Made by a program: the position numbers and the translations under genes. Positions 5,942 to 20,000 of a stretch of DNA of 20,000 nucleotides are shown piece by piece. The first letter of the stretch is position 1, and every line of letters starts with the position of its first letter. Where the stretch lies: the IMG/VR virus record IMGVR_UViG_3300033417_000007, one strand, 5' to 3'. Below the pieces are notes generated by a model, which saw only the letters and a program-made list of their open reading frames with translations, searched no databases and was not told the origin of the DNA. The DNA is from an uncultured virus (IMG/VR IMGVR_UViG_3300033417_000007) (lineage: Duplodnaviria; Heunggongvirae; Uroviricota; Caudoviricetes).

Positions 5942-5988
5942 TACAAATGTGCCAATGGTCTTTTGGGCGTTCGGGCCAGACTGTCCCC

Positions 5989-6423: not shown

Positions 6424-6574
6424 TCTCCTTCTTCACGACCACGCGCCACTTCGACGTCCCGTGCTTGCAGCGCACCCCGGATGGAGTGCGGTAAACGACC
6501 ACTTCCTTCTTGTCGTTGACTGCGGATCCGATCGGACCGCAGATTTCGCAGATGACGAGATGACGGCTCCCCAC
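6341..6574 (-). CDS. Small hypothetical protein with CxxC..CxH
   Basis: GTG directly after the upstream TAG; CEICG...RCKH. Confidence 0.55.
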   Translation of the reverse strand: MGSRHLVICEICGPIGSAVNDKKEVVVYRTPSGVRCKHGTSKWRVVVKKENGDAGRTGETARGSKDPGGASPPRPAL

Positions 6575-6991
6575 CTAAAGGACCATCCCCTGAACGACGA
6601 GGGGCTGGTTCTCGCCTGGGTACTGTCCCGACGGACACGCGTAGATCAGCCGATGACCGGGGTAGCTCTCGACTTCGGTCAGGCTGTAGCCCTGAGCCTG
6701 AAGCTGCTGCGTCTCGGCGAGCATCTGGTTTTCCTGGCCCGGGTAGACCGGGATCGTGCGGCACTGCGAAGTCGGATTCTGCCAACGGGGCGTGAGGCCC
6801 GGGTAGAGGTCGCGCTTGAGGCGCCTGGTCTGCTGGACCTTTCCGAGGCCGCTTCCTTGCGTCTGGAGGATCGTGAGGCCGGCCGCACGTCCAACGATCG
6901 CGCGCGCGACGTCGGAACGCCATCCCTCCCGGACGAGATCCCGGTGGAGGTCGAGGATCGCCTTGTACTGGCCGGCGCTCAGAGCCCTCAT
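6575..6991 (-). CDS. Hypothetical protein (138 aa, Gln-rich)
   Basis: ATG 6991 just after the upstream stop, with GGTG SD-like sequence; part of track ORF 6575..7183. Confidence 0.7.
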   Translation of the reverse strand: MRALSAGQYKAILDLHRDLVREGWRSDVARAIVGRAAGLTILQTQGSGLGKVQQTRRLKRDLYPGLTPRWQNPTSQCRTIPVYPGQENQMLAETQQLQAQGYSLTEVESYPGHRLIYACPSGQYPGENQPLVVQGMVL

Positions 6992-6995
6992 CGCA

Positions 6996-7280
6996 TCACC
7001 GCCCGTACCGACAGCCGTACCCACGACACTGATCTCCGCACACATGCCGCCTTCCGCGCCCCCGCACGGGCTCGACGGACGTGATGAGGGCATCGAACTG
7101 CTCGAAGGCCGGGAAGGACGTCTTGCACCGTGGGCAGACGACGGAGCCGTCTCCCATGAGAAGAGCCTCCTCCTGCTCCGCATGTTCTTCGTCGTGTTCG
7201 TCGCAGTGAGGGCAGATGAGGGGGCCGTAGGCCCTGGTGTCGATCTTCAGTTTCGCGACGGGCGTGTCGGCATCCGGCAT
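6996..7280 (-). CDS. Zinc-ribbon hypothetical protein
   Basis: CPHC ... CPRC; SD GAGGT. Confidence 0.7.
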   Translation of the reverse strand: MPDADTPVAKLKIDTRAYGPLICPHCDEHDEEHAEQEEALLMGDGSVVCPRCKTSFPAFEQFDALITSVEPVRGRGRRHVCGDQCRGYGCRYGR

Positions 7281-7285
7281 CGCAT

Positions 7286-7492
7286 CTACCTCTTCGCTTC
7301 AGCGATCTTGGCTTCGATCAGGTGGACAAGCTCCTTGGCGCAGTCGAGGTGAATGGACTTGGAGACCTTGACGATCAACTTGAACGTGATTCGAAGCATC
7401 TTCGGGTGGGCGTCCTTCTTGATCTTCTCGTCGCAGACGACACACTCGGATTCCTCCGTGTCGACCGCCTGGACGTTGTCCATGTTCAGCAT
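7286..7492 (-). CDS. Small zinc-binding hypothetical protein
   Basis: CVVC ... HLDC (treble-clef-like); start overlaps the upstream gene end. Confidence 0.7.
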   Translation of the reverse strand: MLNMDNVQAVDTEESECVVCDEKIKKDAHPKMLRITFKLIVKVSKSIHLDCAKELVHLIEAKIAEAKR

Positions 7493-9288
7493 GTCTGGGC
7501 CCCAAGCATCTCGAGCGCAGCCTCTACGATATCATCCGGTTCGATGTCCCGACAGATCCAATCGGAACACTTCTGCCAGGCCTTGGTCGACTGGCACGGA
7601 GAGCAGGGGAGCGGCCGGTAGATCTTCCGGAAACGACGTCCCACGGGTTCCCCTTTCACAGGGCTCGTGGCCGTGTAGATCATGACGGTCGGGATCCCGA
7701 GCGACGCCCCCAGATGCGCCGCGCCGCTGTCGGTCCCGATGATGAACGCGCAACCCGCAAGCAGGTCCGGAAGAAGCTCGATCGACGTTTTTCCCATGCA
7801 GTCGATCCCCACAAGACCTTCCCCGAGCGAGTCCCTGTCGGCTTGGGTGCCGATCAGCATCGGCACGTACCCGAGTGCCTCGATCTTCTTGGCGACCTCC
7901 CCCATGCGAGGGTACTTCTTGCGCTCCCACAGATCCCCAGGCTTGCATCCAGGGACGATCGCGGCTCCCTGGGTGAAGAGGCTGTCCGAAGGGGGCTTAA
8001 GGCCCCTGCACCACCCAGACACGTCGGGCTTCGATCCCTTCCAGCCGAAGCTGGATGCCATCTCAAGGAGTACGCTCCACTCTGGGGCGTGGTACAGGGA
8101 TACGTGCTTCCACTTCGACTGGTGCGTCGGAGTGAACCCTCGCGCGCGCCAAGGACCACTCAGGTAGGCGTCGGCCGCAGGAAGAGTCCCGACGCCGGCC
8201 ATCTCGACCACCTCATCCAAGTAGACGCACCTCTTCCATAATTCGGTCGTGGGCGAGTCGGTATCGACACACCCGACGATCTCGAGGCCGGTCGATTTCA
8301 GGGCATGAAGGAGCGGAAGGTTGAAGAGCGAGTTCCCGATCCCGCCGGCGAGGCTCACCGCGACGCGCTTCACCTCCCCAGACGAGATCACGACGGACCC
8401 CGCGGCATCAGGCTCCCCGCGAAACACCCGCTCAATCAAGGAATGCCAGTAGGTCAGGTGCCGGTCGAGGGTGTGGGACACCTCAAAATAACTCGAACGA
8501 GACCGCTTCTCCCGCAGCGCCTTCCTAAGGTGGTGGATGGCGACGTCCGGATCGTCCCGCTTCTTCCAGGGAAACGTGTGCATCCCGCCGAACATGCCGA
8601 CGAACCCGACGTCCGTCGATACGATCGGAAGCCCGCAAGCCTCCGCATCCGCCACCGCATAGGGAGCCCCCTCGGAAAGCGACAGGCACAGGTACGCGTC
8701 GGCCTGCCGGTAGAAGTCTTCCCTGGATTTCTTCTCGGGCGCGAAGGCGAGTTGACGAAACTCGACGTCCCGCATCTTCGCCCGGATGCGCTCGATGGCA
8801 ACCAACCCCTTGTTGGGGTTGCGCCAGTCGCCGATCACGACGGGGCGCACCCTGGACTCCGGCGTCCGCACGAACGGCTCCGCGTAGTTCGGGATTACGG
8901 TCGGACGATAGGGACGCCCGGCGGCCACCTTGCGGAACTCGCCGGCGATCCATTCGCTCGGGGCGACGTACCACCTGTTGGGCAGGCCGAACATCGCGTC
9001 TTGCGCTTCCACGAGGGCAAGCGTCTCAGGGGTCCTCCAGCTGGGGTCCCGCTCGTAGTGGGTCTTCGCACAGCCGTGATGAACCACCACCGTCCGGACC
9101 GACCCCGGGACATCGAGACTCAGGTGGTTGTCGGTGATGACGACGTCCGTTTTCGGGTCGAGATCTGAAGGAAGCTCCCTCACGGACACAAGGTCCAGGA
9201 AGACCTGACGCAGCTCGAAGTCGAACCTGGGCACGCCGCTCCAGGCGCCGTCCTCGTACCGCGACCCGACGTAGCTGAAGATCCTCAA
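7486..9288 (-). CDS. Bifunctional glycosyltransferase: GT4 (GT-B) fused to GT9 (ADP-heptose:LPS heptosyltransferase-like)
   Basis: N-half YLCLSLSEGAPYAVADAEACGLPIVSTDVG; C-half LAGGIGNSLFNLPLL, PG..W.RKKYP, IGTDSGAAHLGASLGIPTV and PCSPCQ..C..C. TTG start at 9288 overlaps the upstream TGA. Confidence 0.9.
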   Translation of the reverse strand: MRIFSYVGSRYEDGAWSGVPRFDFELRQVFLDLVSVRELPSDLDPKTDVVITDNHLSLDVPGSVRTVVVHHGCAKTHYERDPSWRTPETLALVEAQDAMFGLPNRWYVAPSEWIAGEFRKVAAGRPYRPTVIPNYAEPFVRTPESRVRPVVIGDWRNPNKGLVAIERIRAKMRDVEFRQLAFAPEKKSREDFYRQADAYLCLSLSEGAPYAVADAEACGLPIVSTDVGFVGMFGGMHTFPWKKRDDPDVAIHHLRKALREKRSRSSYFEVSHTLDRHLTYWHSLIERVFRGEPDAAGSVVISSGEVKRVAVSLAGGIGNSLFNLPLLHALKSTGLEIVGCVDTDSPTTELWKRCVYLDEVVEMAGVGTLPAADAYLSGPWRARGFTPTHQSKWKHVSLYHAPEWSVLLEMASSFGWKGSKPDVSGWCRGLKPPSDSLFTQGAAIVPGCKPGDLWERKKYPRMGEVAKKIEALGYVPMLIGTQADRDSLGEGLVGIDCMGKTSIELLPDLLAGCAFIIGTDSGAAHLGASLGIPTVMIYTATSPVKGEPVGRRFRKIYRPLPCSPCQSTKAWQKCSDWICRDIEPDDIVEAALEMLGAQTC

Positions 9289-9899
9289 AGGGAAACTCCA
9301 CCGAACAGGACCACCCCGATACGCCCCAACGTCCCGGGAAGATATGTCCCACCGCGCTCCATGATGACGGCTGGAACGCCGCCGTCCCCATGGGAATCCG
9401 GATGCTGGATCGACGCGTCGTCGAAAAATACCACCCCAGGTCCATCCCCAATATCTTCCGCGGCACATTCGTACTCAGCGCCCGCGCTGGAGAAGGAGTG
9501 GTTCCCGTCGATCAGCCACACATTCGGAGTCGCTTCTACGGGGAACGCCCTTCGGTGGCCCTTATTCCTCAGAAGACCGGTCGAATCCCCCGTCATAAAT
9601 TCCGCCACTCCATCGAGTCCGGCCGTCTCCAGAAACATCCGGCCCGCCAAAGACGCGACAGGGTCGATGTCGACCGAGACGAGACGGCACTCCCTCTCCT
9701 GCGCCGCCGCCGCAAGCCAAAGCGCGCTCCACCCACGATACGTCCCGATCTCCACAATCCCCCTGACGTGGATCGGAAGAGTGCAAATCACGCGGTATAG
9801 AAGTTCGATCTCGAACCTCGGAATGGAACGCTTCGTCCGATTGGAAATCTCTTCCTCGGAAACGCTACAGAGAAACCTACGGATGTCGACGAGTTTCAT
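9285..9899 (-). CDS. Class I SAM-dependent methyltransferase (Methyltransf_24 / O-methyltransferase-like)
   Basis: IVEIGTYRGWSA, LVSVDID, GDS, LIDGNHS, GVVFFDD; ATGA coupling. Confidence 0.9.
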   Translation of the reverse strand: MKLVDIRRFLCSVSEEEISNRTKRSIPRFEIELLYRVICTLPIHVRGIVEIGTYRGWSALWLAAAAQERECRLVSVDIDPVASLAGRMFLETAGLDGVAEFMTGDSTGLLRNKGHRRAFPVEATPNVWLIDGNHSFSSAGAEYECAAEDIGDGPGVVFFDDASIQHPDSHGDGGVPAVIMERGGTYLPGTLGRIGVVLFGGVSL

Positions 9900-10444
9900 T
9901 TCGGAGCCTCCGCGACGACCCGGATCGACGGTCCCCACTGCGGGTTGGAGTGGACCGGAGCTTCGGCCCGGACCGACACGAACTTCGCCTCCTTGAGTTC
10001 CATCACGAGCCTCGGAGCGTCCCACCAGGACCCGTTCATCTGCCCGGGATGTTCGTGGGTTCCACCGAACAGCGTGTGCCAGCTACGATGCGAGAGCGCC
10101 GAAGCGGGCTTCTTGACGAAACGATTGGCGGCGCTGTCGGTCCAAGTCCACCCCGCTTCATGCCAGGCGACGTATTCCCTGGCGATCGCGAGAATGTCGG
10201 GACACTCGACGGAGAGCTTCCCGCCCGGCGCCATCGCGCGACGCCAGTGCCGCAGCATCTTCGGCACGTCCCTGTGGCTGATGTGCTCGATCAGGTGGAG
10301 CGACTCGAGTTCCGTAATCGAGCCGTCCCTGAACGTCGCGAGCGTCCGGGCATCGTCCTTGATGACGGTCTCGGAACGCGGGTAGAGGTCTACGTTGAGC
10401 CATCCAGGCCGGATGTTCTGCGAGCACCCGAGGAAAACCTTCAT
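9896..10444 (-). CDS. Class I SAM-dependent methyltransferase (Methyltransf_11-like)
   Basis: KVFLGCS..PGWLNVD, HLIEHI, WRRAMAPGGKLSVECPD; ATGA coupling. Confidence 0.88.
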   Translation of the reverse strand: MKVFLGCSQNIRPGWLNVDLYPRSETVIKDDARTLATFRDGSITELESLHLIEHISHRDVPKMLRHWRRAMAPGGKLSVECPDILAIAREYVAWHEAGWTWTDSAANRFVKKPASALSHRSWHTLFGGTHEHPGQMNGSWWDAPRLVMELKEAKFVSVRAEAPVHSNPQWGPSIRVVAEAPK

Positions 10445-11178
10445 GTTCGCCTCCATCCAGCGACCGCATCGCGATTGAGCGGCGCATCCTCTCCGGCGCG
10501 CTGCTCGTTGTCCCAGGTCGAATCCTGCTTCTTCCACGCGAACGTGCGAACGAGCCCGGGCACGCAGGCGACATGACGCCCGAGCATCTTAACAGACGAC
10601 GGCGCCCAGGTGGCGACCCACCAGTCTACGTTGGAACCGATCCCGCGCGGCTGTCCGGCCACGCGCTTAGGGGCCCCAAGCTCCCGCGTCGGGATCGGCA
10701 TGACGGCTGTCCAGTAGTCCCGGTGTGCGTGCATGTGGGTCGCCCGGCAACTGTCTTTGAAGGAAACGGCGATCCCGTTCATGTTCGTCCTGCGGATGGT
10801 CTTGTGCTCGGCCGCTTCGTGGCCGGTGAGAAGCGGCCTATCCTTCAGGTGCTGCACGTCCCGCAGGATCTCGAGGATGTCCGGGTCGACCTCTACGTCG
10901 TCCTGGAAGTAGGAAATCCATTCCAGAGATCGATCCGCCAGTAGGAAAGAAAGGCCGATGTTGAGCGCGCACGCGAGGCCCCTCTTCCCCTGGATCGGGA
11001 TGTACGAGAACCCGGCCTCGATGGCATACGCCTGATGCTCGACCTGATGTTGCGTGCCCGATGAATCATCGACCACCAGCACGAGTCGGCCGCCGCGGAC
11101 CTTTCGGATCGACTCGAAGGCGCTTCGGGCGTGCTTTGGCCGGTCGCACACGGTGACGAGAACCGCCGTGTCCTGCAT
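10441..11178 (-). CDS. Glycosyltransferase family 2 (GT-A)
   Basis: VLVTVCDRP, LVVDDSS, RGLACALNIGL, YFQDDVEVD; SD AAGGAGG. Confidence 0.85.
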   Translation of the reverse strand: MQDTAVLVTVCDRPKHARSAFESIRKVRGGRLVLVVDDSSGTQHQVEHQAYAIEAGFSYIPIQGKRGLACALNIGLSFLLADRSLEWISYFQDDVEVDPDILEILRDVQHLKDRPLLTGHEAAEHKTIRRTNMNGIAVSFKDSCRATHMHAHRDYWTAVMPIPTRELGAPKRVAGQPRGIGSNVDWWVATWAPSSVKMLGRHVACVPGLVRTFAWKKQDSTWDNEQRAGEDAPLNRDAVAGWRRT

Positions 11179-11392
11179 GTCCCCCTCCTTTTACCACGAG
11201 ATCATCCACGGATCTGGTCTGCTCCGCAAGGGAAGCCTCACGGAGCCCGCGGCGCCACACCTGGATCAACACCTCGGCCGCAAGCGGAATGTGCTCGAGG
11301 GAGTATCCATGGTACTTCACGTCGCCGGCCTCCTCGATCCGGACGACCGCGACGGCCGGCTGCTTGCACCCGCAGACGCAAAGTACCTCCAC
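11066..11392 (-). CDS. Hypothetical protein
   Basis: GTG with SD GGAGGT; N-terminal CVCGC; the tail overlaps the next gene by 113 nt. Confidence 0.55.
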   Translation of the reverse strand: MEVLCVCGCKQPAVAVVRIEEAGDVKYHGYSLEHIPLAAEVLIQVWRRGLREASLAEQTRSVDDLVVKGGGHAGHGGSRHRVRPAKARPKRLRVDPKGPRRPTRAGGR

Positions 11393-11393
11393 G

Positions 11394-12296
11394 CTACCTC
11401 CGCTCGACAGATCCGTTGGAGATGTACTCCTTGCCGGCGTCGTCTTTGACGCTCACGCAGTCGACCCAGGTGGCCCCCAGCGGGGACCGGTTCTGCAGAA
11501 GGACGTCGAACCGATGGGAGAGCCTGGGAACCTTCACCGCAAGACGCACGAGGTTCCAGACCGGCCGATCCGGAGGAATGTTCGCGTCGGTCTGCCCGGC
11601 AAGCGACCCGTCCTCCCTGAAGAACCTGATCCGGAAGGTCCCGTCGCGATCAGTTCCGAGGGAGTAGGCGTAGCAGGACATGACGAGAGTCTCCCCTTCA
11701 TCCGGAGGTGCGACCCTCTCCGTGATGGCCGAGGAGTATTCGGACTTGTCCTCAAGGCCCGTGGGAATGAGCCGGATGGAGTTGCCCCCCTCCATCGCGA
11801 AAGTCGTGTCGACACGCATGATGTCGTTCGGATGGAATCCCATCCACCAGTCAGGCTTCCAGACCGCAAGCTTAGCGGACTCCGCCCCAGGCCGAAGGCC
11901 CGCGACCACCATCATGGTAGGCCTGAGCTTCTGGCGACCTTCGTCCGGTAGTGCGTCCCACGCCAGGCCGTACCAGTGATACGCGCGGCCCTTGATCGCA
12001 GTCCTGTAGTATGGATGCGCACGCATAGACGCCTTCAGCCACGCATGTCCAACCTTGATCGGATCGACCCCCTCCTTCGACTCGAGCTCCGCCGCGCTCT
12101 TGAGATCGCGGTCGAGGCCGGAAGCGAGAAGCGGAACGGCCCCCTCCCAGTTCCCCTTCCTCGCCTCCCAACGCCCCATGATGGACAGGGACTTCCCGTC
12201 GTCGGGCTTTCTCTCGAGTTTCGCCTGGGCGACCTTGACGTCCGGAGGAACGTCCTGACCCGACATCAGCCCCGCCACGAGCAGCATCCAAACCAT
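11394..12296 (-). CDS. Putative exported protein: helical domain plus carbohydrate-binding (CBM4/9-like) beta-sandwich
   Basis: Hydrophobic N-terminus; helical region KPDDGK..GRW..KGNWEGAVPLLA..RAYHWY; C-terminal DTTFAMEGGNSIRL...GATWVDCVSV...ISNGSVE; SD AGGAGGT. Confidence 0.7.
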   Translation of the reverse strand: MVWMLLVAGLMSGQDVPPDVKVAQAKLERKPDDGKSLSIMGRWEARKGNWEGAVPLLASGLDRDLKSAAELESKEGVDPIKVGHAWLKASMRAHPYYRTAIKGRAYHWYGLAWDALPDEGRQKLRPTMMVVAGLRPGAESAKLAVWKPDWWMGFHPNDIMRVDTTFAMEGGNSIRLIPTGLEDKSEYSSAITERVAPPDEGETLVMSCYAYSLGTDRDGTFRIRFFREDGSLAGQTDANIPPDRPVWNLVRLAVKVPRLSHRFDVLLQNRSPLGATWVDCVSVKDDAGKEYISNGSVERR

Positions 12297-12299
12297 ACG

Positions 12300-13196
12300 T
12301 CACCTCCTCGATACGGACTCGACCAACCTCTTCCACCTGGAAGCACACCTTCTGGACGACATCCTTTTGACGATCGACGCCCTGGCATTATAGCCTACCT
12401 TCTGTGCCACGTCACGATTTTCCAAAAGAAATTCGAGGCGTCCCACGGCCTCAGCCTCCGTATCCGCGATGAAGCAGTTCTTTCTGCTCACCATGAAATC
12501 GGAGAGGTTCCCAGGCCTCATCGTGACGACGGGCATTCCGATCGACATCGCCTCGAGGGCTGCGCAGCAGACGACGCCGCACGGATTGAAGTAGGCTCTT
12601 TGGAATTTGAGAGTGTCCACAAGCGCCTCCGGGCTTGGCGCGTGCGGGATGACCTGGATCCCGCTCTCCGTAAGCGCGTCGTTGCCGGTCCCAATACAGG
12701 AAATCTTTACATCCCGAGCTACCCGCCGAAGAACATCAGGCCCCTTCTCCGTTCGGTTCGGGATGAGATGCCCGGTCGTAATGACAGAGTTCGATGATCC
12801 GATGTAGCCGGAGAACAGGTTCGTGTCGATCCCCGGCTCGATGACACAGGCGTTCGGATCCCCTCCCATACTGAAGCGGGAAGCGGACTCCCTGCAGAGA
12901 GTCGTCCACGCTGAGATCCGGTCGTAGACGACCCGCGGAGGCCTTGGCCACTTCCCGAAATCGACGAAGGACTTCCAGATGATCGGGGTCTCCCGTGCCT
13001 TAAACAGGTCGAATCCAACCCTCGAGCAGACGATCGCGCAGTCGTACTCTCCATCCGGACCAGAAACCACCCTTGCGTTTTGCGGTTTCGGGCGGCACTT
13101 GGCGTCCCAGGATGGACACAGGACGTCGAAGTCGAACCCGGACTTCATGATTTCGGAGTCGCAGCTGGTGTGGGATATTTCGAGGAAGACCCTCAC
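12300..13196 (-). CDS. Glycosyltransferase, GT4-like (GT-B)
   Basis: IEPGIDTNLF, RTEKG, YFNP..AALEAMSIGMPVVT, GYNARA; GTG start overlaps the upstream TGA. Confidence 0.88.
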   Translation of the reverse strand: MRVFLEISHTSCDSEIMKSGFDFDVLCPSWDAKCRPKPQNARVVSGPDGEYDCAIVCSRVGFDLFKARETPIIWKSFVDFGKWPRPPRVVYDRISAWTTLCRESASRFSMGGDPNACVIEPGIDTNLFSGYIGSSNSVITTGHLIPNRTEKGPDVLRRVARDVKISCIGTGNDALTESGIQVIPHAPSPEALVDTLKFQRAYFNPCGVVCCAALEAMSIGMPVVTMRPGNLSDFMVSRKNCFIADTEAEAVGRLEFLLENRDVAQKVGYNARASIVKRMSSRRCASRWKRLVESVSRR

Positions 13197-13915
13197 AGAT
13201 ACCTCTGAGATGGAGGCGCGCCGCCCGCCCTCCATTCGACAAGAAGCTGCGGCCAGAAGCCGACGCCATCCCTCGGAAGATTCGCGATGGCATAGTGTTC
13301 GAAAATGTGCTGCCCTTTCTGCGGGAAGGCCCAATGAAGATGGTGATGCGCGAGCGCCTTATCCCGCACGCGTTTCGCGCCGGCGAAGGTGGGGATAGGA
13401 TGGCGCTCCGGATTCCCATCGTAGAGCGGGTGTTTCTGCCATGCCGTGTTCTGAGGCACCTCCATGTGGATGTTCGCGTGCCAGACTTTTCGTCCCCAGT
13501 CTTCCTCGCTGTAGTAGGGGAGTCCGTCGGAACCCCAGTGGACGGTCATGGTCTCGACGTAGGTGTTCGGGGTCGCAAGTTTGGCCTGCTCCAGAATCTC
13601 CCTAGATACGAACTCGTCGGAGTCGAGATCCACGACGACGTCTACGCCCATCGCCATCGCGATCCGGAAGGCGCGCGTCTTTGCCTGGCGGCACATGAAC
13701 GTCTTCCAGTCGCCGCTCTTATAGGAGTCGTCATAGACCCAAACGACATTGTGCGGAAGGTTCCGCCAGGAGCGTCGCTTCGCCGCCGGCGAGACGTCGA
13801 GCACGACATGGAACGTCGAAAGTTTTGAATGGTGTTCGAGCGCCCCGAAAAGGAACTCGAAGTCCACGTCGACCCCGCAGGCGGTCGCGAAGGCGACGGT
13901 AGGCGACGTCTTCAA
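13193..13915 (-). CDS. Divergent GT-A / GT2-like glycosyltransferase
   Basis: DVVVDLDSDEF (DxDE) and a late HHHLH motif; TTG start overlaps the upstream TGA. Confidence 0.7.
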   Translation of the reverse strand: MKTSPTVAFATACGVDVDFEFLFGALEHHSKLSTFHVVLDVSPAAKRRSWRNLPHNVVWVYDDSYKSGDWKTFMCRQAKTRAFRIAMAMGVDVVVDLDSDEFVSREILEQAKLATPNTYVETMTVHWGSDGLPYYSEEDWGRKVWHANIHMEVPQNTAWQKHPLYDGNPERHPIPTFAGAKRVRDKALAHHHLHWAFPQKGQHIFEHYAIANLPRDGVGFWPQLLVEWRAGGAPPSQRYL

Positions 13916-15690
13916 GTGAGTTTCCCCACCATCTCGCCCGCCGTCCGATCCCAAGTGAACCAGCTCCGGATAAACGAAGATCTCCCATGCCATTTCGCCG
14001 GCTTACCCCTAAGCACGCTCACGAGAGCTTCCATCGATATAGCCCCGTACTTCGCGAACCGCATACCAGCGTACCACTCGCAGACCGAATCCCCCTCAGG
14101 ATACCGGGCGGACCCTTCCACGGGAAACATAAACGCCCCCGTCTCCGCGCATTCGGAGTGGGACGTGTGATTCGGCACTATAGCCGGGAGCCCGCAGGCG
14201 ACCGCCTCGAAGAGCGGGAGATTGAACCCTTCCCCAAGAGACGTCGACACGTATGCATCGGCGCCGCAGTAGAGCGACGACATCTGATGCTCCGAGAGCC
14301 TTCCTGAAATGTGGTAGATCCTCGCCTTCTTCGTCGCCGGGTCGTCGAGGTCCGGATAAAGAAGCGGCTCGCCGTCATGCACGCCCGTGTAGATGACGAG
14401 ACAACGATCCCCTCCGGAAGGGAATGCCGCGAGGAACGAGGACACGAGGAACCCCAGACCCTTCCGGAAGGTCGGCTGGCAGACGGTGAGGTACTTGTAT
14501 CCGCGTGGGATCTCGGTCGTACCGATCCGTCGCGTCGTGAGCAGCCTTGCCTTCGGGAGGGTTCCCCTGCGAGGCCTGTAGATCGCAGGGTCGACCCCGA
14601 GCGGGATGACGCTGATCGGGATCGTGACCCCGGAAGCCTTGAACGTATCCCGATTCCACCGGGTCGGCGTCCACAGTTGCGAGTAGTTCCTGTTGATGAG
14701 GGAGACCATCCCGCGGTGGACCCGGTCCGCCGTCTCCATCATCGTGAAGATGATCCGCTCCCCCTTCGAAACCTCCTTCTGCGGAACGTAGAACCGAAGG
14801 AGCGGCGCTTTCGCGGACACTTCCGTTCCGAAGTACGGGTCGAGCCTGCGGCGCGTGTAGTCGTCGACCAGGACCGGCTCCGGATTCGGCGCGCGCCTCG
14901 CCGAAACCCTGACGGAGTTCGCGACCCGAAAGAGCGTCTCGCGGTTCGCTTTCGCGTAGCCCGACAGGTCGTAGAAGTGCCCGGACCAGGCGACCTCAGG
15001 ACCGTCTGGAACGTGACTCTGCGTCGACGGCCCCGAAGGGGTTCCCCACGACGGGTCAGGAGGCGCCTGGCCGATGGCCTTCAGCGCCCTAGCAGGCGCC
15101 TTTTTCCGGTCGAGCCGACTGGCCTCATGGACGATCACAGGGTGCGCCCCTTGGGAAGTCGGGCGCATCAGGCGCTCGATCCAGCAGTATTCGCGCGGCA
15201 GTCTCCGCAGGCGCGACGGATCCACCCTCGAGAGGACCGATGCGAGGTTGACCTGATCGAATCTGGACGGATGCCTGCGGTTTTCCTTCACCCACTCGGA
15301 GAGCACCCTTCTAGCGAGAGGAGATCTCCTCAGATAGAGCGTTCCGTTGAAGACCTTCCCTTGCCCCTCCCAAGCCGTCCCGGCACCGGAGACTTTTCCA
15401 GGGACATGCCGATACACCGCGATGTCGAAAAGGTCGCCGGCAGCGTCGAAGGCCGTCGGCTTTCGAACGAACACAGCATCCGCATCCACCCAGACGACCG
15501 CGGTGCACCTGGGCTCCACCTTGAGATTTGCAAGGAACCTGGCCTTGTGGTGGGTATTCTTCTCCCAGGAACCAAGGTCCCTCACCTTGACCGCGAGCAC
15601 GTCGACCCCGACCTTCTTGCCGGACTGAACAAGCCTCCTGGCGAGCTCCGCGTAACGGCCCGGCGTGTAGCAGGTGCAGTAGAGGATCAT
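13912..15690 (-). CDS. Bifunctional glycosyltransferase: nucleotide-diphospho-sugar transferase (GT-A) fused to GT4 (GT-B)
   Basis: N-half WEKNTHHKARF, VWVDADA, NGTLYL, DQVNL, LPREYC; C-half SGYAKANR, TMMET, WTPTRWN, RKG, TSLGEGFNLPLFEAVACGLP, FTWD. ATGA-coupled to the nuclease. Confidence 0.9.
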   Translation of the reverse strand: MILYCTCYTPGRYAELARRLVQSGKKVGVDVLAVKVRDLGSWEKNTHHKARFLANLKVEPRCTAVVWVDADAVFVRKPTAFDAAGDLFDIAVYRHVPGKVSGAGTAWEGQGKVFNGTLYLRRSPLARRVLSEWVKENRRHPSRFDQVNLASVLSRVDPSRLRRLPREYCWIERLMRPTSQGAHPVIVHEASRLDRKKAPARALKAIGQAPPDPSWGTPSGPSTQSHVPDGPEVAWSGHFYDLSGYAKANRETLFRVANSVRVSARRAPNPEPVLVDDYTRRRLDPYFGTEVSAKAPLLRFYVPQKEVSKGERIIFTMMETADRVHRGMVSLINRNYSQLWTPTRWNRDTFKASGVTIPISVIPLGVDPAIYRPRRGTLPKARLLTTRRIGTTEIPRGYKYLTVCQPTFRKGLGFLVSSFLAAFPSGGDRCLVIYTGVHDGEPLLYPDLDDPATKKARIYHISGRLSEHQMSSLYCGADAYVSTSLGEGFNLPLFEAVACGLPAIVPNHTSHSECAETGAFMFPVEGSARYPEGDSVCEWYAGMRFAKYGAISMEALVSVLRGKPAKWHGRSSFIRSWFTWDRTAGEMVGKLT

Positions 15691-16502
15691 GCCGACCACC
15701 CCTGACAAGGGACGTAGAACGGGCAGTAGATCGCCTTGCAGAGGAAGTGGGTCGGGTTCGTGGGGTACTCGTTGCGCTGGATCTTCCCCCACACGTCGGC
15801 CGCAAGCTCAGCCCATTTGTCGACGTCGTCCCTGGTCAGCTTGAACTCGACGACCTCGACTCTAGGGCGCTCCCCGCGGACGAGGAATACCTTGCGGACA
15901 GGAACGCTGCCCCCGTGGTCCACGCCGTTCTCGATCAATAAGCGCGCGTAGTGGGGGAACTGGATCGTCGACTTCTTTGCGGCGCTCGAGATCTTCTTCG
16001 TCGTCTTCCAGTCCCAGATCACGCCGGACGCGTCGATGACGTCGGCCTTCCCCCAGACCAGGAACTCCCCGTAGTCGCTCGGGTAAAGGAGCTTCACGTC
16101 GGTTTCGATGTCGCGCGGATCAATGAGAGGGATCACCTCCCGTGCGGCCAGCGGGACCAGTGCTCTACACTCCTCCCTCTGCACGTCAAGACCATCTCCC
16201 TCGTCATGAGACCACCCAAGGAAGTCCCTCTTGTGTTCCTCCCTCGCGACCGAAGACTTCCACCGGTTCAGGAAAACGTCATCGAGCTCTTTTTCGGAGG
16301 GGACGCTTGCCCCGAGCTTTTTTGCTACCAGGGCGTACTCGAGGGCGCCGTGGACGGCGATCCCCGACGTCATGACGAGTGGGGACTGCTGCGGGACCTT
16401 CTCCACGTACCGCAGGCGAAACTGCTCGGGGCACTTGAGGTAGCCCTCCACCTTGGACGGGGAGAGGTTCTTGATCGGCGACTGCAGAAGCCCGAACTCC
16501 AT
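15687..16502 (-). CDS. PD-(D/E)XK nuclease, Cas4-like / RecB-family exonuclease with probable Fe-S cluster
   Basis: LSPSKV..YLKCP, G.AVH..LE, E..V, GKADVID, DWKT, Q..HY, C-terminal CKAIYCPFYVPC. Confidence 0.92.
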   Translation of the reverse strand: MEFGLLQSPIKNLSPSKVEGYLKCPEQFRLRYVEKVPQQSPLVMTSGIAVHGALEYALVAKKLGASVPSEKELDDVFLNRWKSSVAREEHKRDFLGWSHDEGDGLDVQREECRALVPLAAREVIPLIDPRDIETDVKLLYPSDYGEFLVWGKADVIDASGVIWDWKTTKKISSAAKKSTIQFPHYARLLIENGVDHGGSVPVRKVFLVRGERPRVEVVEFKLTRDDVDKWAELAADVWGKIQRNEYPTNPTHFLCKAIYCPFYVPCQGWSA

Positions 16503-16665
16503 CCGGATCCCCTTTCTTTTGGTCCCGCGCGGCGCGCGCGCCTTCACATTTCGATTCGTGCTTGAGGCTGCAGTTTCGGAAGCGGTAGTCCTGGCAGACG
16601 CACGCCTTGCAATAAGGGCAAAGCGCGATGCACGGCCAGCCGCACTCGGAGCAGGAGGCGCCCAC
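16279..16665 (-). CDS. Cys-rich zinc-finger hypothetical protein
   Basis: GTG overlapping the upstream TAG; CSEC..C..CPYC..C.C..C..H..C; the tail runs 224 nt into the nuclease gene in another frame. Confidence 0.55.
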   Translation of the reverse strand: MGASCSECGWPCIALCPYCKACVCQDYRFRNCSLKHESKCEGARAARDQKKGDPDGVRASAVADQEPLPVQGGGLPQVPRAVSPAVRGEGPAAVPTRHDVGDRRPRRPRVRPGSKKARGKRPLRKRAR

Positions 16666-17714
16666 TAGAACATCCGCTCCTCTACTTCGCCGCCGCTCGC
16701 GGCGGCTTCCTCGGCGACGACCTCCTTCTTGGCGGCCGGCGCGGGAGCCGGCGCCTTGAAGCCGACCGGCCAGCGCGTCTCCTGCGTCGGCAGGTGGACG
16801 ACGGTGAGGGTCTTGGTGCCGTCCACCGTCACGTCCTTGAGTGCGCACTCGCCGGAGCCCACCAGGCGCAACTGCGGTCCGAGCTTGAGGATGAGGTCTT
16901 CGGTCAGGTCCCGGACGCGGTCCTTCCCGGTCAAGCGCCGAAGGACGTTTCGCTGCTTGGCTTCCGTGTCGAGCTGCGGAACCGCCGCCTTGAAAACGAC
17001 CCAGAACTGCTGCTGCATCGTGAGTTGCCGCTTCTTGGCGGGATCGACGACGCCATCTTGCGCGCCCTTTTGGTCCTGGGCGGGCGCCTTGGTCTCGGGA
17101 GCAGGCTTCTTGGGGCCCTCCGGCTTCTCCTGCTTGCTCGGCGCTGGAGCGTCCTTCATGACGCCGCCGGTCGCCGGGGCTCCCTTGGGCCTGGAGCTCC
17201 CCTTCGCGCCGCCCTTGCGGATGATGAGCTTGATGAACTCGAGAAGGAAGTCCTGCGGGAGGAGCGCCTGCTTCGCGTTACGGACGGCCTGCGACACAGC
17301 CTTCTCGAAGAACGAGGGGTCGGCGCGGACCTCTCCGCTCCTGAGCTTCTCCTTGACCCACTTGCGCTTGGATCCGATCTCGGACCCCAGTACCACGCGG
17401 GCGCCCGTCTGCTTGTCGATCTTCACCCGGCGCGCGAGCACCTGCACCAGGATGTAGTCCGGATCCACCGGGTCGTACCGGACGTCCGCGACCCCGACGA
17501 CCTCGATCACCTCCCCCTGCTCTTCGAGCTTGCGACAGGCGAGCTTGACCGCCCGGTACGTCAGCGCGTAGCCGCCATGGATGGGGAAGATGAACTTGTC
17601 CTCCTCGTAGACGAAGCCGCTGAGTTCGTCGAGGAGCTGCTTCTCGTCTCCGAGCGTGAGGTCGACGTCGTGCGCGGGGGCGGCCGGGAGCGCCTGGTTC
17701 TCGGTCATGCTCAT
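16665..17714 (-). CDS. Putative single-strand annealing / recombination protein (Rad52/Sak-like fold suspected)
   Basis: N-domain ending DPSFFEKAVSQAVRNAKQALLP, Pro/Ala/Lys linker, small helical domain, acidic tail ending in F; adjacent to the exonuclease; SD AAGGAG. Confidence 0.6.
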   Translation of the reverse strand: MSMTENQALPAAPAHDVDLTLGDEKQLLDELSGFVYEEDKFIFPIHGGYALTYRAVKLACRKLEEQGEVIEVVGVADVRYDPVDPDYILVQVLARRVKIDKQTGARVVLGSEIGSKRKWVKEKLRSGEVRADPSFFEKAVSQAVRNAKQALLPQDFLLEFIKLIIRKGGAKGSSRPKGAPATGGVMKDAPAPSKQEKPEGPKKPAPETKAPAQDQKGAQDGVVDPAKKRQLTMQQQFWVVFKAAVPQLDTEAKQRNVLRRLTGKDRVRDLTEDLILKLGPQLRLVGSGECALKDVTVDGTKTLTVVHLPTQETRWPVGFKAPAPAPAAKKEVVAEEAAASGGEVEERMF

Positions 17715-17860
17715 TCTCCTTTATCTGATTCCTTCTTCACCGGGCACGTCTTGTACCCGTGTTCCCATTGACAGTTTCGAGTCTTGCAATAGTGCCCGAT
17801 GTGGTCGCGGGATCGACGCCGACCGCAGTAACGGCAGTAGAGGGGGCACGGACACTTCAT
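17711..17860 (-). CDS. Small Cys-rich protein (49 aa)
   Basis: ATGA coupling at both ends; CPC..CRYC..HYC..C..C. Confidence 0.6.
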   Translation of the reverse strand: MKCPCPLYCRYCGRRRSRDHIGHYCKTRNCQWEHGYKTCPVKKESDKGE

Positions 17861-18030
17861 CGGGTTCGCCCCCAGCACATGGCGAGATGAAGCTCCACGT
17901 TTTCCGCGCAGACCCCACCACGCCAAGCCCGTCGCACAATCCACCCGCACCCGCAACAGCGATAGATGTAGCAATCGTCGCTACCGGCTTCGTTTTTCGC
18001 GAAGCAGTTAATGCAGGAGACTGTGATCAT
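17857..18030 (-). CDS. Small zinc-ribbon protein (57 aa)
   Basis: ATGA coupling at both ends; CINC..CCGCG. Confidence 0.6.
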   Translation of the reverse strand: MITVSCINCFAKNEAGSDDCYIYRCCGCGWIVRRAWRGGVCAENVELHLAMCWGRTR

Positions 18031-18188
18031 CGGGAACGCGCACCTTTCATATCGCGCAAGAACTTCGCCAGCACCTTGTGGGCTTCCTTGTAGGCGCACT
18101 GAGGCCAACAAGAACAGCGACCTACCCCCGCGAGACCGAACAGCCGGTCTATCAACTTCTCGTTCCGCCTCTTCTGCTCAGGCGTCAT
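18027..18188 (-). CDS. Hypothetical protein (53 aa, MTPEQKRRNEKLIDRL...)
   Basis: ATGA coupling at both ends; SD GAGGAGG. Confidence 0.65.
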   Translation of the reverse strand: MTPEQKRRNEKLIDRLFGLAGVGRCSCWPQCAYKEAHKVLAKFLRDMKGARSR

Positions 18189-18331
18189 CGCGCCTCCTCT
18201 TCCTTCAGGCATCGTTCGCAGTAGGGCCTCCAGCCCTTGTAGTAGAGCGGGATGAACGGTCCCTCGTCGTACATCCCAGGGTCCCTGACCATCTTGTGCC
18301 CCAGGAGCCAGCAGAGCAGAGCGCGTAACAT
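18185..18331 (-). CDS. Small DUF1660-like phage protein (48 aa)
   Basis: MLRALLCWLLGHKM...YCERC; below the ORF-track cutoff; its stop overlaps the next ATG. Confidence 0.65.
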   Translation of the reverse strand: MLRALLCWLLGHKMVRDPGMYDEGPFIPLYYKGWRPYCERCLKEEEAR

Positions 18332-18336
18332 CAGAT

Positions 18337-18663
18337 TCACGCAGGCATTGAAATCCCGAGGATCGAACAGCCCTTCTCCCCGATACCCATCTTGATAGCC
18401 TCCTCACGGGAGGCGTGTAGGCTCATGTGAGAGTCGCACTGTCAGCCGTGTCCGGTGTAGTCCTGGGACTCCTCAAGAGCGCCCCATCGGCCATCCTTCA
18501 GGCGGAACAGGGCGTATCCCGTCTCCTCGTCCGGCACGGATGGCACCCACAGCTCGACCGACTCCACCATGTCGTGCTTGTAGTCCTGCGGATGCTCTAG
18601 GCAGCACGACGAGAGGAACTCCAACTCCTTCTTGAAGGCCGCCAGATCCGACTCAGTGGTCAT
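18337..18663 (-). CDS. Hypothetical protein with in-frame TGA at codon 74, candidate selenoprotein (UxC); 73 aa (18442..18663) if TGA terminates, 108 aa if recoded
   Basis: ...ESQDYTGHG-TGA-QCDSHMSLHASREEAIKMGIGEKGCSILGISMPA-TGA; the extension ends 5 nt before the next start codon. Confidence 0.65.
18398..18414 (-). promoter_or_regulatory. Candidate bacterial SECIS hairpin
   Basis: GCCUCC-CGUGA-GGAGGC; the loop begins 33 nt 3' of the UGA, with G (then U) at loop position 2. Confidence 0.4.
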
Positions 18664-18919
18664 TTCTCAAATCCTCCGATTTGCGCTTGGGCTTTGGATT
18701 GGCCTTCGGTGTCTTCTTGAAGTACTTCTCGTCCAGCCATCCGAAGTTGAAGCTGTTAGGGCCGATCCCGTGTAGCCAGAACCGTGCGAGCTTTCTCTCG
18801 TAGGCTTCCCGATGGACCCTTGACGCCTGCGCGAGAATCACCCGATCCTCGTCCGTCTCGGCGTACACGACGAATTGGAGTTCGGGCCAGCCGGTAGCCT
18901 TTGCCGCCTTGATCCTCAT
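18653..18919 (-). CDS. Hypothetical protein (88 aa)
   Basis: ATG 18919 with SD GGAGG; ATGA coupling. Confidence 0.65.
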   Translation of the reverse strand: MRIKAAKATGWPELQFVVYAETDEDRVILAQASRVHREAYERKLARFWLHGIGPNSFNFGWLDEKYFKKTPKANPKPKRKSEDLRNDH

Positions 18920-19089
18920 TTCCCCTCCGAAGTATGCCGCCTGCACCTGAAGCACCAGAACGGCGCGACCGTCTCCGTCGTCCACGCGCACCCCTCGATC
19001 TTGTACTCACCGGCAGGGAAGTAGGTCGGACCAGATACCGAATGGAGATGCCCAACGATCAGGCACCACAGCCTTTTGATGTAGTTCAT
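18916..19089 (-). CDS. Small DUF1660-like phage protein (57 aa)
   Basis: MNYIKRLWCLIVGH...WCFRC; not in the ORF track; fills the gap exactly. Confidence 0.65.
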   Translation of the reverse strand: MNYIKRLWCLIVGHLHSVSGPTYFPAGEYKIEGCAWTTETVAPFWCFRCRRHTSEGK

Positions 19090-19092
19090 AGG

Positions 19093-19431
19093 CTAGACCT
19101 GCGTATCCCCGAGGCCGACATGCGCCGTGTCGGGATTTGCCTTCCAGTCTCGTTGACGCACCTTCGCCCAGGTCGACTCGACGATCTCCTGCATGTCGAA
19201 GCCCCTGGAGGAGCAGTAATCCATCAGGTAGATCACCACGTCCGCAACGGCATCCTTGGCGTTCTCGACGTGGTTCTCGTTTTGACGGATGCCCTGCTCC
19301 TCTTTCAAGTGCGCGTGGGCCAGTTCTCCCAACTCCTCGACGGCCCCGAGGAGGGGGTGGTAGCTAGGGCGTTCCCCGAAGTTCTTCAGAACCCAAGCCC
19401 TCTGTTCTGCCTGGATCTCTCGTATGTTCAT
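19093..19431 (-). CDS. mazG: MazG-like nucleoside triphosphate pyrophosphohydrolase
   Basis: LLGAVEELGELAH (EExxE), KDAVADVVIYL, W.KV..RDW; SD GAGG. Confidence 0.85.
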   Translation of the reverse strand: MNIREIQAEQRAWVLKNFGERPSYHPLLGAVEELGELAHAHLKEEQGIRQNENHVENAKDAVADVVIYLMDYCSSRGFDMQEIVESTWAKVRQRDWKANPDTAHVGLGDTQV

Positions 19432-19441
19432 CGAATCCTCG

Positions 19442-19825
19442 TTAAACGAAAGCCTTCTTTTGCCAACCCGGAGCATAAATCCCGATCATCGCCATGAGAG
19501 GTTTAATCTCGTCGGCCCATCCGAGTTGCCCGGCAATCCCCGCGATGCCCATAGCGGCACCCCGACACCAAGTGCACGCCGAGCACCGGATGTCGGTAAG
19601 TTCGAGCACCTCACAGCCGTGGCATTTCTTCATTTGAATGATGGCGCTCCGAATCTGACGGTGTACGGCCCGGCGTAGTATTTCAATACTGGCGGGCTTG
19701 CCGCCGTCTTGAACGCAGAAGTCCCCAAGGGCCTCAACTTCCCTGCCGTCCTGGCTCGGATGGGCGCAGGTCGGAAACCCCGATAGAGTAATCGGCGGCT
19801 CCGGGAGTCCGTGTTTGTCTGTCAT
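19442..19825 (-). CDS. Cys-containing hypothetical protein (127 aa)
   Basis: ATG 19825 with SD GAGG; CHGC..CSAC..C. Confidence 0.65.
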   Translation of the reverse strand: MTDKHGLPEPPITLSGFPTCAHPSQDGREVEALGDFCVQDGGKPASIEILRRAVHRQIRSAIIQMKKCHGCEVLELTDIRCSACTWCRGAAMGIAGIAGQLGWADEIKPLMAMIGIYAPGWQKKAFV

Positions 19826-19836
19826 ATTTCCCCTCT

Positions 19837-20000
19837 TTAGACCTTCGCAGTTCCCGCCGCCTTCCAGCACGCAGCCCACTCGTCGATCCAGTCGACCGCG
19901 AGCTTCGCCGCATGGTTGTCCTTGGGTTTCTGGCCGGGCTGGATCATCGCGAACCACTGCTCGGCGGGCCTGCTCGAGTCGGGCGTGATCCCCTTGATCT
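19837..20000 (-). CDS. C-terminal part of a phage protein (possibly the tail domain of a pentapeptide-repeat protein)
   Basis: [41 protein letters not shown]...TAA; open from the window edge; family link is recollection only. Confidence 0.55.

What the first reader, a model, noticed from the sequence alone, without database searches (positions are those of the whole stretch)
18337..18663. Candidate phage-encoded selenoprotein: in-frame UGA in a DYTGHG-U-Q-C motif with a SECIS-like hairpin
Seen: the 73-aa ORF stops at TGA (18442-18444) right after a conserved-looking DYTGHG. The frame continues 34 codons (QCDSHMSLHASREEAIKMGIGEKGCSILGISMPA) and ends 5 nt before the next ATG. Neighbouring genes abut or overlap, so a true stop here would leave an anomalous ~110-nt gap. 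A 6-bp hairpin (18398-18414, loop CGUGA) has its loop 33 nt after the UGA. TGA is a normal stop elsewhere in the window (many ATGA junctions), so this is not genome-wide recoding. Known: bacterial Sec insertion needs a stem-loop just 3' of the UGA with a G near the start of the apical loop, and UxC/CxU are typical redox motifs. Recollection, unverified: uncharacterised phage proteins carry DYTG[WH][DG]CQ followed by a similar helical tail. Inference: the phage borrows host SelB/tRNA-Sec to make a selenoprotein of an uncharacterised family, or uses the UGA as a selenium-dependent switch.
Basis: partly seen in the sequence, partly recalled or inferred. Interest (0 to 1): 0.9.

Follow-up and report, generated by a model that had tools for sequence, protein, structure and literature searches.

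The report
Phage gene with a selenocysteine codon
A small phage gene has an internal UGA "stop" exactly where its relatives have a cysteine, and it keeps coding afterwards past a matching RNA hairpin, so it most likely makes a selenium-containing protein of an undescribed family.

Summary
The gene lies on the minus strand at 18663..18337. It has an in-frame TGA at 18444-18442 after DYTGHG, 34 more in-frame codons, and a 6-bp hairpin (loop CGUGA) 33 nt after the UGA.

Comparative evidence supports selenocysteine (Sec):
- Of 148 homologue clusters, 24 end exactly at this column. In the 150-row alignment the column holds Cys in 123 natural homologues.
- Seven further distinct DNA copies (two metagenome, five viral) carry TGA at the same codon. 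All are followed by x-Cys, and six of the seven by a clearly recognisable tail.
- All 8 TGA forms have a hairpin with G in the first two loop bases, 19-33 nt downstream. None of 5 Cys-form DNAs does.
- TGA ends ordinary genes in the window, including this gene, so the code is not reassigned.
- AlphaFold2 folds the 108-residue read-through product with pLDDT 91.8, and the tail forms a sheet strand and a helix.

The family matches no Pfam, NCBIfam or PHROG model and no convincing known fold. My searches found no description of a phage selenoprotein.

Still open: the host and its Sec machinery are unknown, incorporation is not shown, and function is only inferred (a redox or metal centre).

The parts
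18337..18663 (-). Whole recoded gene: 108 codons (Met1 to Ala108, with Sec74) plus the terminal TGA
   Evidence: Translation with TGA=U. Full-length Cys homologues of 105-128 aa align end to end, and P0004 ends at the same residue. AlphaFold2 gives pLDDT 91.8 over all 108 residues.
18673..18677 (-). Shine-Dalgarno-like GGAGG, 9 nt before the ATG at 18663-18661
   Evidence: Read directly from the sequence.
18442..18444 (-). In-frame TGA, proposed Sec74 codon in the motif DYTGHG-U-Q-C
   Evidence: The aligned column holds Cys in 123 natural homologues, and 24 clusters end here. Seven other distinct DNA copies have TGA at the same codon.
18398..18414 (-). SECIS-like hairpin: 6-bp stem GCCUCC/GGAGGC and loop CGUGA, starting 33 nt after the UGA
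   Evidence: Meets the published bSECIS constraints (PMC13188914, Fig. 2 legend, passages read) in my scan, with dG -9.8. It has the same stem length and the same central G-U loop bases as the hairpins of 5 other Sec forms. A possible lower stem extends it to about 18422-18385.
18340..18441 (-). Coding tail after the UGA (34 codons: Q75 to A108), which forms beta-strand 77-83 and helix 86-102
   Evidence: Scores 39.9 bits against a profile built only from Cys-form tails, while the other two frames score -1.1 and -2.1. GC3 is 0.74.
18337..18339 (-). Terminal TGA, read as a stop. It overlaps the GTG at 18340 of the next gene (DUF1660-like, 18340..18185).
   Evidence: The homologue P0004 ends at the same aligned residue.

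Best explanation
The gene at 18663..18337 (minus strand) encodes a 108-residue selenoprotein of an uncharacterised, phage-borne family. During infection the ribosome reaches UGA74. The hairpin in the mRNA just downstream acts as a bacterial-type SECIS and recruits the host's SelB.GTP.Sec-tRNA(Sec). Selenocysteine is inserted and translation runs on to the second TGA, which has no such hairpin behind it and terminates.

Sec74 sits in the loop G-H-G-U-Q-C between two beta-strands. In this subfamily it co-occurs with Cys76, His72 and the Cys20-Cys21 pair. I infer that it is the reactive residue of a small redox centre (a selenylsulfide with Cys76 or Cys20) or, less likely, of a metal site. I also infer that the protein acts early in infection, alongside the replication and recombination genes.

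Shown here: the conserved in-frame TGA, the Cys/TGA pairing, coding continuity, a hairpin specific to the TGA forms, and ordinary use of TGA as a stop. Inferred: that the inserted residue is Sec, that the host supplies the machinery, and the biochemical role.
For: 1) Cys/TGA pair. Of the 148 representatives of 50%-identity clusters, 24 end exactly at [ST]GHG. In the 150-row alignment, column 74 is C in 124 rows (123 natural), END in 24, W in 1 and a gap in 1, and all 24 truncated rows end with a residue in column 73. The window's three closest 90%-identity clusters (72-78% identical) also end at DYTGHG.

2) DNA. The codon is TGA in the window, in L002 and L006, and in L007 (identical to L008), L009, L010, L011 and L012. 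All 6 viral hits to the TGA pattern are true homologues. The same pattern with TAA or TAG gave 1 hit, which is a chance match. U-x-C is kept in 8 of 8.

3) Coding continues. A profile built from 123 Cys-form tails scores the in-frame tails of the TGA forms at 23-40 bits in 7 of 8 (L007 scores 6.3). All 16 out-of-frame controls score 0.4 bits or less.

4) SECIS. Under the strict published model, 5 of 8 TGA forms pass, the window among them, and 0 of 5 Cys forms pass. With the energy limit relaxed to -4 kcal/mol it is 8 of 8 against 0 of 5, with background rates of 3.2% and 13.7% of window positions. Six hairpins with odd-length loops, stacked on the loop centre, share an invariant G-U, pair in 36 of 36 stem cells and show 2-4 pair types per position. 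With the partners slid, only 11-20 of 36 cells pair.

5) No reassignment. TGA terminates at least 9 of the 12 genes I checked in the window, including this one. The window has no tRNA gene.

6) Fold. AlphaFold2 on the read-through product gives pLDDT 91.8 and pTM 0.84, with the tail as strand 77-83 and helix 86-102.

7) Sec and Cys states are scattered over the family tree: 17 changes, at least 4 of them forced by well-supported branches. This is typical of reactive Cys positions.
Against: - The host is unknown and no genome is held for the window, so the presence of selA, selB, selC and selD cannot be checked.
- There is no protein or RNA evidence.
- The window's hairpin loop lies 33 nt from the UGA, whereas the other seven TGA forms have it at 19-23 nt. 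It is within the published 16-37 nt range but is an outlier in its own family.
- The 63 nt after the UGA fold no better than shuffled sequence (z = -0.29 for the window, -0.3 to -0.9 for the others).
- Three of the 8 TGA forms fail the strict -7.5 kcal/mol limit when the stem is taken as a simple contiguous helix.
- Only 5 Cys-form DNAs were available as a control.
- One homologue (P0030) has Trp at the column, which could mean that some lineages or gene callers read TGA as Trp.
- The tail of L007 is barely recognisable.
- The hairpin structure was derived from the same sequences on which it was counted.
Confidence: 0.8

Rival explanations
1. The UGA is read through without selenium. A near-cognate or suppressor tRNA (Trp, Cys, Arg or Gly, or a tRNA-Cys with anticodon UCA) inserts a standard residue, and the hairpin merely slows the ribosome or weakens termination.
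For: Coding continuity and the leaky context UGA-C in 7 of 8 copies fit read-through as well as they fit Sec. P0030 has Trp at the column. No Sec machinery could be shown for any host.
Against: The aligned residue is Cys in 123 homologues, which is the classical Sec/Cys signature. The hairpins match the SelB-type consensus: a small loop, G then G or U at the start of the loop, and 16-37 nt spacing. They are absent from the Cys forms. No suppressor tRNA was found in the window or in the loci held for 7 relatives. TGA ends the same gene 34 codons later.
Confidence: 0.1
2. The TGA is a true stop. The functional product is the 73-residue protein, and the downstream 34 codons are untranslated or made separately.
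For: Gene callers annotate 73-residue products in the window and in 24 clusters. An ATG lies 5 codons after the TGA.
Against: The tail is conserved in frame in 7 of 8 TGA forms but not in the other frames. The ATG is not conserved in the other TGA forms, and no Shine-Dalgarno sequence precedes it. The tail supplies a sheet strand and the C-terminal helix of a confidently predicted single domain. Full-length Cys homologues are single polypeptides.
Confidence: 0.05
3. The TGA is a sequencing error, or a recent nonsense mutation in a decaying gene.
For: The window's own reads could not be examined. The one run found holds only a relative, and its aligned part stops short of the codon.
Against: The same codon is TGA in 7 other distinct DNA copies from different samples with different GC content. 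24 clusters end at the same residue. The downstream frame is intact and conserved.
Confidence: 0.01
4. The phage, or its host, uses a genetic code in which TGA is a sense codon throughout (table 4 or table 25 type).
For: Phages with recoded stop codons are known (recalled, not checked here).
Against: TGA terminates genes whose ends are fixed by family profiles or by ATGA/GTGA overlaps. These include the Cas4-like gene (profile covered to residue 282 of 286), the integrase-like gene, the methyltransferase, the glycosyltransferase, and this gene itself. Only one of the 12 hairpin-associated UGAs has coding sequence on both sides.
Confidence: 0.01

Closest known systems
Bacterial selenoprotein genes with an in-ORF SECIS read by SelB (prototype E. 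coli fdhF; consensus bSECIS model as given in PMC13188914, Fig. 2 legend)
   Same: An in-frame UGA aligned to Cys in homologues. A small stem-loop inside the coding sequence 16-37 nt downstream, with G followed by G or U at the start of a 3-9 nt loop. An ordinary TGA stop elsewhere in the same genome.
   Different: The gene is carried by a phage that shows no Sec machinery of its own. The protein family is not among the described ones. In the window the loop sits at 33 nt, against 19-23 nt in the other members.
Poxvirus glutathione peroxidase selenoproteins (molluscum contagiosum virus, fowlpox virus; passages of PMC8310308 read)
   Same: A virus carries a selenoprotein gene and depends on the host's Sec insertion system.
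   Different: Those are eukaryotic viruses with a eukaryotic SECIS and a gene captured from the host that belongs to a well-known enzyme family. Here the system is of the bacterial type and the family has no cellular members in my searches.
tRNA-Sec genes reported in huge phages (passages of PMC10747093 read)
   Same: They link phages with selenocysteine decoding.
   Different: That paper reports tRNA genes only and names no phage selenoprotein. The phages here are about 46-66 kb, and 5 of 5 records searched carry no tRNA-Sec.
Small Cys-rich bacterial (seleno)protein families of NCBIfam, such as the CC/Se motif family NF041239 and SaoC NF040734
   Same: Short proteins in which a Cys of a Cys-rich motif alternates with Sec.
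   Different: No significant match. The best is NF040734 at E = 0.068 and 12.9 bits, against a cut-off of 80, on one homologue. The motif and the predicted fold are different.

Membership tests
Bacterial-type selenoprotein gene (Sec-UGA plus in-ORF SECIS) | In-frame UGA with conserved coding sequence continuing in the same frame | tested here: met
   the window's tail scores 39.9 bits against a profile of Cys-form tails, and the other frames score below 0.
Bacterial-type selenoprotein gene (Sec-UGA plus in-ORF SECIS) | Cys-containing homologues aligned at the UGA position | tested here: met
   Cys in 123 natural homologues out of the 149 aligned with the query.
Bacterial-type selenoprotein gene (Sec-UGA plus in-ORF SECIS) | UGA recurs at the same codon in independent homologues | tested here: met
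   7 further distinct DNA copies; 24 clusters end there.
Bacterial-type selenoprotein gene (Sec-UGA plus in-ORF SECIS) | Hairpin meeting the bSECIS model: loop 3-9 nt, stem 4-16 bp, G in the first two loop positions, 16-37 nt from the UGA, dG <= -7.5 | tested here: met
   the window has a 5-nt loop CGUGA, a 6-bp stem, 33 nt spacing and dG -9.8. The model is taken from PMC13188914. The scan is my own script, not bSECISearch.
Bacterial-type selenoprotein gene (Sec-UGA plus in-ORF SECIS) | The decoding organism has selA, selB, selC (tRNA-Sec) and selD | not testable with these tools
   The host is unknown and no genome is held. The viral records themselves carry none of the four.
Bacterial-type selenoprotein gene (Sec-UGA plus in-ORF SECIS) | Selenium shown in the protein | not testable with these tools
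   Needs 75Se labelling or mass spectrometry.
Any described protein family (Pfam-A, NCBIfam, PHROGs) | Profile match above the family's threshold | tested here: not met
   The query has 0 families in Pfam, PHROGs and NCBIfam. Of the 150 alignment members, no Pfam family is matched by more than 2, and none at E below 9e-4.
Phage or host with TGA reassigned to a sense codon | TGA not used as a terminator, and in-frame TGAs spread over many genes | tested here: not met
   TGA ends 9 of the 12 genes checked; only one UGA has coding sequence on both sides.
WGR domain / cystatin-like alpha+beta fold | Structural similarity well above background | tested here: inconclusive
   The best match is Z 5.2 (rmsd 4.1, 87 residues aligned, PARP-3 WGR domain), followed by stefin and cystatin chains at Z 4.7. 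The tool's own note puts chance best hits at Z 7-8. Foldseek found nothing at E <= 0.001 in PDB or BFVD.

The most novel reading that the evidence does not exclude
Selenoprotein genes are a regular, overlooked part of phage genomes. This family, with about one cluster in six in the Sec form and at least four independent Cys/Sec switches, is a phage-only selenoprotein with a new fold.

Because these phages carry no Sec machinery, the UGA ties production of the full-length protein to a Sec-competent, selenium-replete host. The 73-residue termination product and the 108-residue selenoprotein would then act as a selenium- or host-dependent switch early in infection.
Probability: 0.2. Interest if true: 0.9.

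Novelty: new variant of a known kind. Interest (0 to 1): 0.8.

Why it matters
If the UGA is read as Sec, this is a selenoprotein family that lives in bacteriophages and has no described relatives. It would extend selenium biology to phage-host interaction.

The current prokaryotic selenoproteome review (PMC13188914) and the BSepDB paper (PMC13326102) each contain 0 occurrences of "phage", "virus" or "viral".

It would also mean three practical things. Gene callers systematically truncate such phage genes. A phage's host range or infection programme can depend on the host's Sec machinery and selenium supply. And the Sec/Cys pair marks residue 74 as the reactive centre of an unknown small fold, which gives a direct handle for experiments.

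Tried and rejected
- The search for related loci on viral contigs with peptide patterns confirmed no relative. The patterns required Q[DN]YTGHG, which the viral copies lack. A DNA pattern then found them.
- Genome contigs: the peptide-pattern scan found nothing. The DNA pattern gave one hit, in a Tropicibacter genome, which is a chance match with no open frame. So I found no prophage copy in reference genomes and gained no handle on the host.
- Cultured phages (INPHARED): no tblastn match for the family, nor for two neighbouring proteins.
- tblastn of 21 window proteins against the loci held at that point (L001-L017), which include the family members' flanks: no hit, so there is no shared synteny.
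- Sequencing runs: no RNA holder is listed. One soil DNA run holds a small share (0.09). Its 972-nt contig is a diverged relative (it reads ...MNESQDYTG, like P0005), and its aligned part stops before the TGA, so neither the window's reads nor the relative's codon could be seen.
- Rfam: no SECIS or other family matched at 18200-18800 (best E 5.6).
- Counting ORF lengths with TGA read as sense was uninformative in this GC-rich DNA.
- MAFFT aligned the hairpins by sequence rather than by structure, so I counted pairs on an ungapped stack in a script. The two hairpins with even-length loops (L010, L011) were left out of that count.
- The protein-atlas search does not take read-through products. 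With the natural Cys homologue P0010 the nearest clusters are unnamed viral proteins scoring 0.89 or less. DUF7574 (on 24% of the members of one cluster) is an unconfirmed lead, and Pfam scans did not recover it.
- A PDB sequence search with the family profile found nothing (best E 0.6).
- Pfam on 16 longer homologues found no fused domain that could hint at function.
- Literature: 8 full-text searches and passages of 8 papers turned up no description of a bacteriophage selenoprotein. Supplementary tables, such as Table S2 of BSepDB, were not opened.

Full report
**Observation.** The feature lies on the minus strand. An ATG at 18663-18661, preceded by GGAGG at 18677-18673, opens a 73-codon frame that ends in ...EESQDYTGHG followed by TGA at 18444-18442. 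The same frame continues for 34 codons (QCDSHMSLHASREEAIKMGIGEKGCSILGISMPA) to a second TGA at 18339-18337. That stop overlaps the GTG at 18340 and lies 5 nt before the ATG at 18331 of the next gene. The hairpin GCCUCC-CGUGA-GGAGGC is at 18414-18398, and its loop begins 33 nt after the UGA.

**Homologues.** The 108-residue read-through product matches no Pfam, PHROG or NCBIfam model, but it has many unnamed relatives.
- A word-index search returned full-length proteins of 107-185 residues carrying DYTGHG-C-QC and a conserved tail (REEAIRLGL...). It also returned three closer relatives (72-78% identical) that end at DYTGHG exactly as the window's annotated product does.
- An exhaustive HMMER search of 1.84 billion cluster representatives gave 148 hits at E <= 0.001. 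Of these, 24 end precisely at [ST]GHG.
- In a 150-row alignment, the column aligned to the TGA holds Cys in 124 rows (one of them the query's placeholder), end-of-protein in 24, Trp in 1 and a gap in 1. All 24 truncated rows stop with a residue in the preceding column. Truncation at contig ends or by random nonsense mutation would not pile up at one residue.

**DNA of relatives.** Six metagenome loci encode relatives. L002 (43% GC) and L006 (59% GC) have TGA at this codon, L003 and L004/L005 have TGT or TGC, and L001 has lost one residue there.
- The DNA pattern for D-Y-T-G-H-G-TGA-x-Cys found 6 places in IMG/VR viral contigs. All 6 are true homologues, 5 of them distinct, and each carries the in-frame TGA followed by Q-C and a tail.
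- The same pattern found one chance match in 185,579 reference genomes.
- The same pattern with TAA or TAG found one chance match in viral contigs.
- The Cys version (TGY-CAR-TGY) found 3 viral copies.
- A profile built only from the tails of 123 Cys forms scores the in-frame sequence after the TGA at 23-40 bits in 7 of the 8 TGA forms (window 39.9, L007 only 6.3). All 16 out-of-frame translations score 0.4 bits or less.

The TGA is therefore conserved, recurrent and followed by translated sequence.

**Hairpin.** The published bacterial SECIS model requires a 3-9 nt apical loop, a 4-16 bp upper stem, a G in the first two loop positions (mostly followed by G or U), 16-37 nt between UGA and loop, and dG <= -7.5 kcal/mol (PMC13188914, passages read). 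I coded these constraints with contiguous stems.
- Strict model: 5 of 8 TGA forms pass, including the window (dG -9.8, spacing 33), and 0 of 5 Cys forms pass. The background is 3.2% of all window positions and 12 of 475 UGA triplets.
- Energy limit relaxed to -4 kcal/mol: 8 of 8 against 0 of 5, with a background of 13.7%.
- In the seven other TGA forms the loop lies 19-23 nt after the UGA and reads GUU, GUU, CGUGU, GUU, AGUU, AGGU and CGUGU. The stems differ completely in sequence.
- Six hairpins with odd-length loops, the window's among them, were stacked without gaps on the loop centre. They share an invariant G-U, pair in 36 of 36 cells of a 6-bp stem, and show 2-4 pair types per position. 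With the partners slid, 11-20 of 36 cells pair. The structure was derived from these same sequences, and the two hairpins with even-length loops were left out.

Two points weigh against. The 63 nt after the UGA are not more stable than shuffled sequence (z -0.3 to -0.9). The window's hairpin is displaced by about 12-13 nt (four codons) relative to the rest of the family. L001, which lacks the Cys/Sec codon, still keeps an 8-bp hairpin with a CGUG loop, possibly a relic.

**Not a changed code, not an error.** TGA ends the integrase-like, methyltransferase, glycosyltransferase, Cas4-like (Pfam profile covered to residue 282 of 286), DUF1660-like and other genes, often in ATGA or GTGA overlaps. 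It also ends this gene, at the residue where the Cys homologue P0004 ends. Of the 12 UGAs in the window that have a SECIS-like hairpin, only this one has long, high-GC3 open frames on both sides. The window has no tRNA gene.

**The protein.** AlphaFold2 with the 150-row alignment gives pLDDT 91.8 and pTM 0.84 for all 108 residues. The elements are helix 4-18, strands 33-40, 49-55, 60-66 and 77-83, and helix 86-102. The part after the UGA thus supplies one sheet strand and the C-terminal helix of a single domain.
- Fold searches gave nothing convincing. Foldseek found no hit at E <= 0.001 in PDB or BFVD. The wide VIA search gave a best Z of 5.2 (WGR domain), then stefin and cystatin chains at 4.7, which is below the tool's chance level.
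- Conservation splits the family in two. An H-subfamily combines C20(-C21), H72, C/U74 and C76. A W-subfamily (DYTGWGCQD, DYTGWDCQS) mostly lacks C20, C21 and C76 but keeps C74. All 24 truncated rows belong to the H-subfamily.
- Residue 74 is thus the one near-universal Cys. On a tree of 121 H-subfamily rows built from the shared N-terminal part, the Sec/Cys state needs 17 changes, at least 4 of them forced by well-supported branches, against a shuffled mean of 23.
- Frequent Cys/Sec exchange at one position is, by established knowledge of selenoproteins, typical of redox-active catalytic cysteines. I therefore favour a redox centre (a selenylsulfide with C76 or C20) over a metal site. This is inference, because I had no access to the model's coordinates.

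**Setting.** The window looks like phage DNA. Genes are tightly packed on one strand and include integrase, MazG-like, PD-(D/E)XK/Cas4-like exonuclease, RNA ligase, methyltransferase and glycosyltransferase genes. The source contig is 65.9 kb long.
- The five distinct viral copies lie in 9.6-51 kb IMG/VR records. Three are estimated complete, and one of those has terminal repeats.
- Their neighbours are replication, recombination and nucleotide-metabolism genes: RecE-, RecT- and RusA-like genes, a replication initiator, a DHH phosphoesterase, an RNA ligase and a NUDIX hydrolase. No specific synteny with the window was found.
- None of the 5 viral records searched carries tRNA-Sec above threshold, selA, selB or selD. 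The one weak tRNA-Sec hit is a tRNA-Thr. Decoding would therefore depend on the host.
- The host is unknown. No genome is held for the window, and there are no relatives among cultured phages or reference genomes.

**Literature and earlier notes.** In 8 full-text searches and the passages I read, I found no described bacteriophage selenoprotein.
- The viral recoding review covers only the poxvirus GPx genes (PMC8310308).
- A huge-phage paper reports tRNA-Sec genes but no selenoprotein (PMC10747093).
- The 2026 selenoproteome review and the BSepDB paper contain no occurrence of "phage", "virus" or "viral".
- A GOS analysis states that the selenoprotein families it examined have few or no viral sequences (PMC9402790).
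- Supplementary tables were not opened.
- Earlier notes of this scan report other candidate phage selenoproteins on other DNA (MuF, and a protein of a huge phage). This family was not noted before. Those notes are unchecked and are not counted as support.

**Verdict.** The conserved in-frame TGA with translated downstream sequence is established. That it encodes selenocysteine through a host SelB-SECIS mechanism is the best explanation (about 0.8). Selenium-free read-through is the main rival (about 0.1). Function is inferred only.

Noticed in passing
window 3860-3891: A perfect 12-bp-stem inverted repeat (dG about -21 to -23 kcal/mol on either strand). It lies 23 nt downstream of the minus-strand ORF that ends at 3915 and close to the integrase-like gene at 4571-5350. 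It could be a terminator or an attachment or regulatory site.
   Followed up: no
L001:1258-1363 (metagenome relative, 49% identical): This family member reads GHG-I-C, one residue shorter and with no Cys/Sec codon. It still keeps an 8-bp hairpin with a CGUG loop 17 nt downstream, possibly a relic SECIS left after loss of Sec.
   Followed up: partly
protein P0030 (homologue, 128 aa): It has Trp at the Sec/Cys column (DYTGHG-W-QC). This is either a TGG codon or a TGA translated as Trp by a gene caller.
   Followed up: no
window 1-20000: The phage-like region has no detectable relatives among 50,697 cultured-phage records for the three proteins tried. It carries two large glycosyltransferase-like genes (13912-15792, 626 aa, and 7486-9468, 660 aa, the latter a weak match) and an RNA-ligase-like gene at 2195-2758.
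   Followed up: partly
L006:2528-2611: ARAGORN calls an unusually long (84-nt) tRNA-Ala with anticodon AGC, about 400 nt upstream of that contig's TGA-form gene. Unchecked.
   Followed up: no
window 18185-18340 (minus strand): The 51-residue gene just downstream, whose GTG start overlaps the selenoprotein gene's stop, matches DUF1660 (a prophage protein) and phrog_2670 weakly and below the curated cut-off.
   Followed up: no
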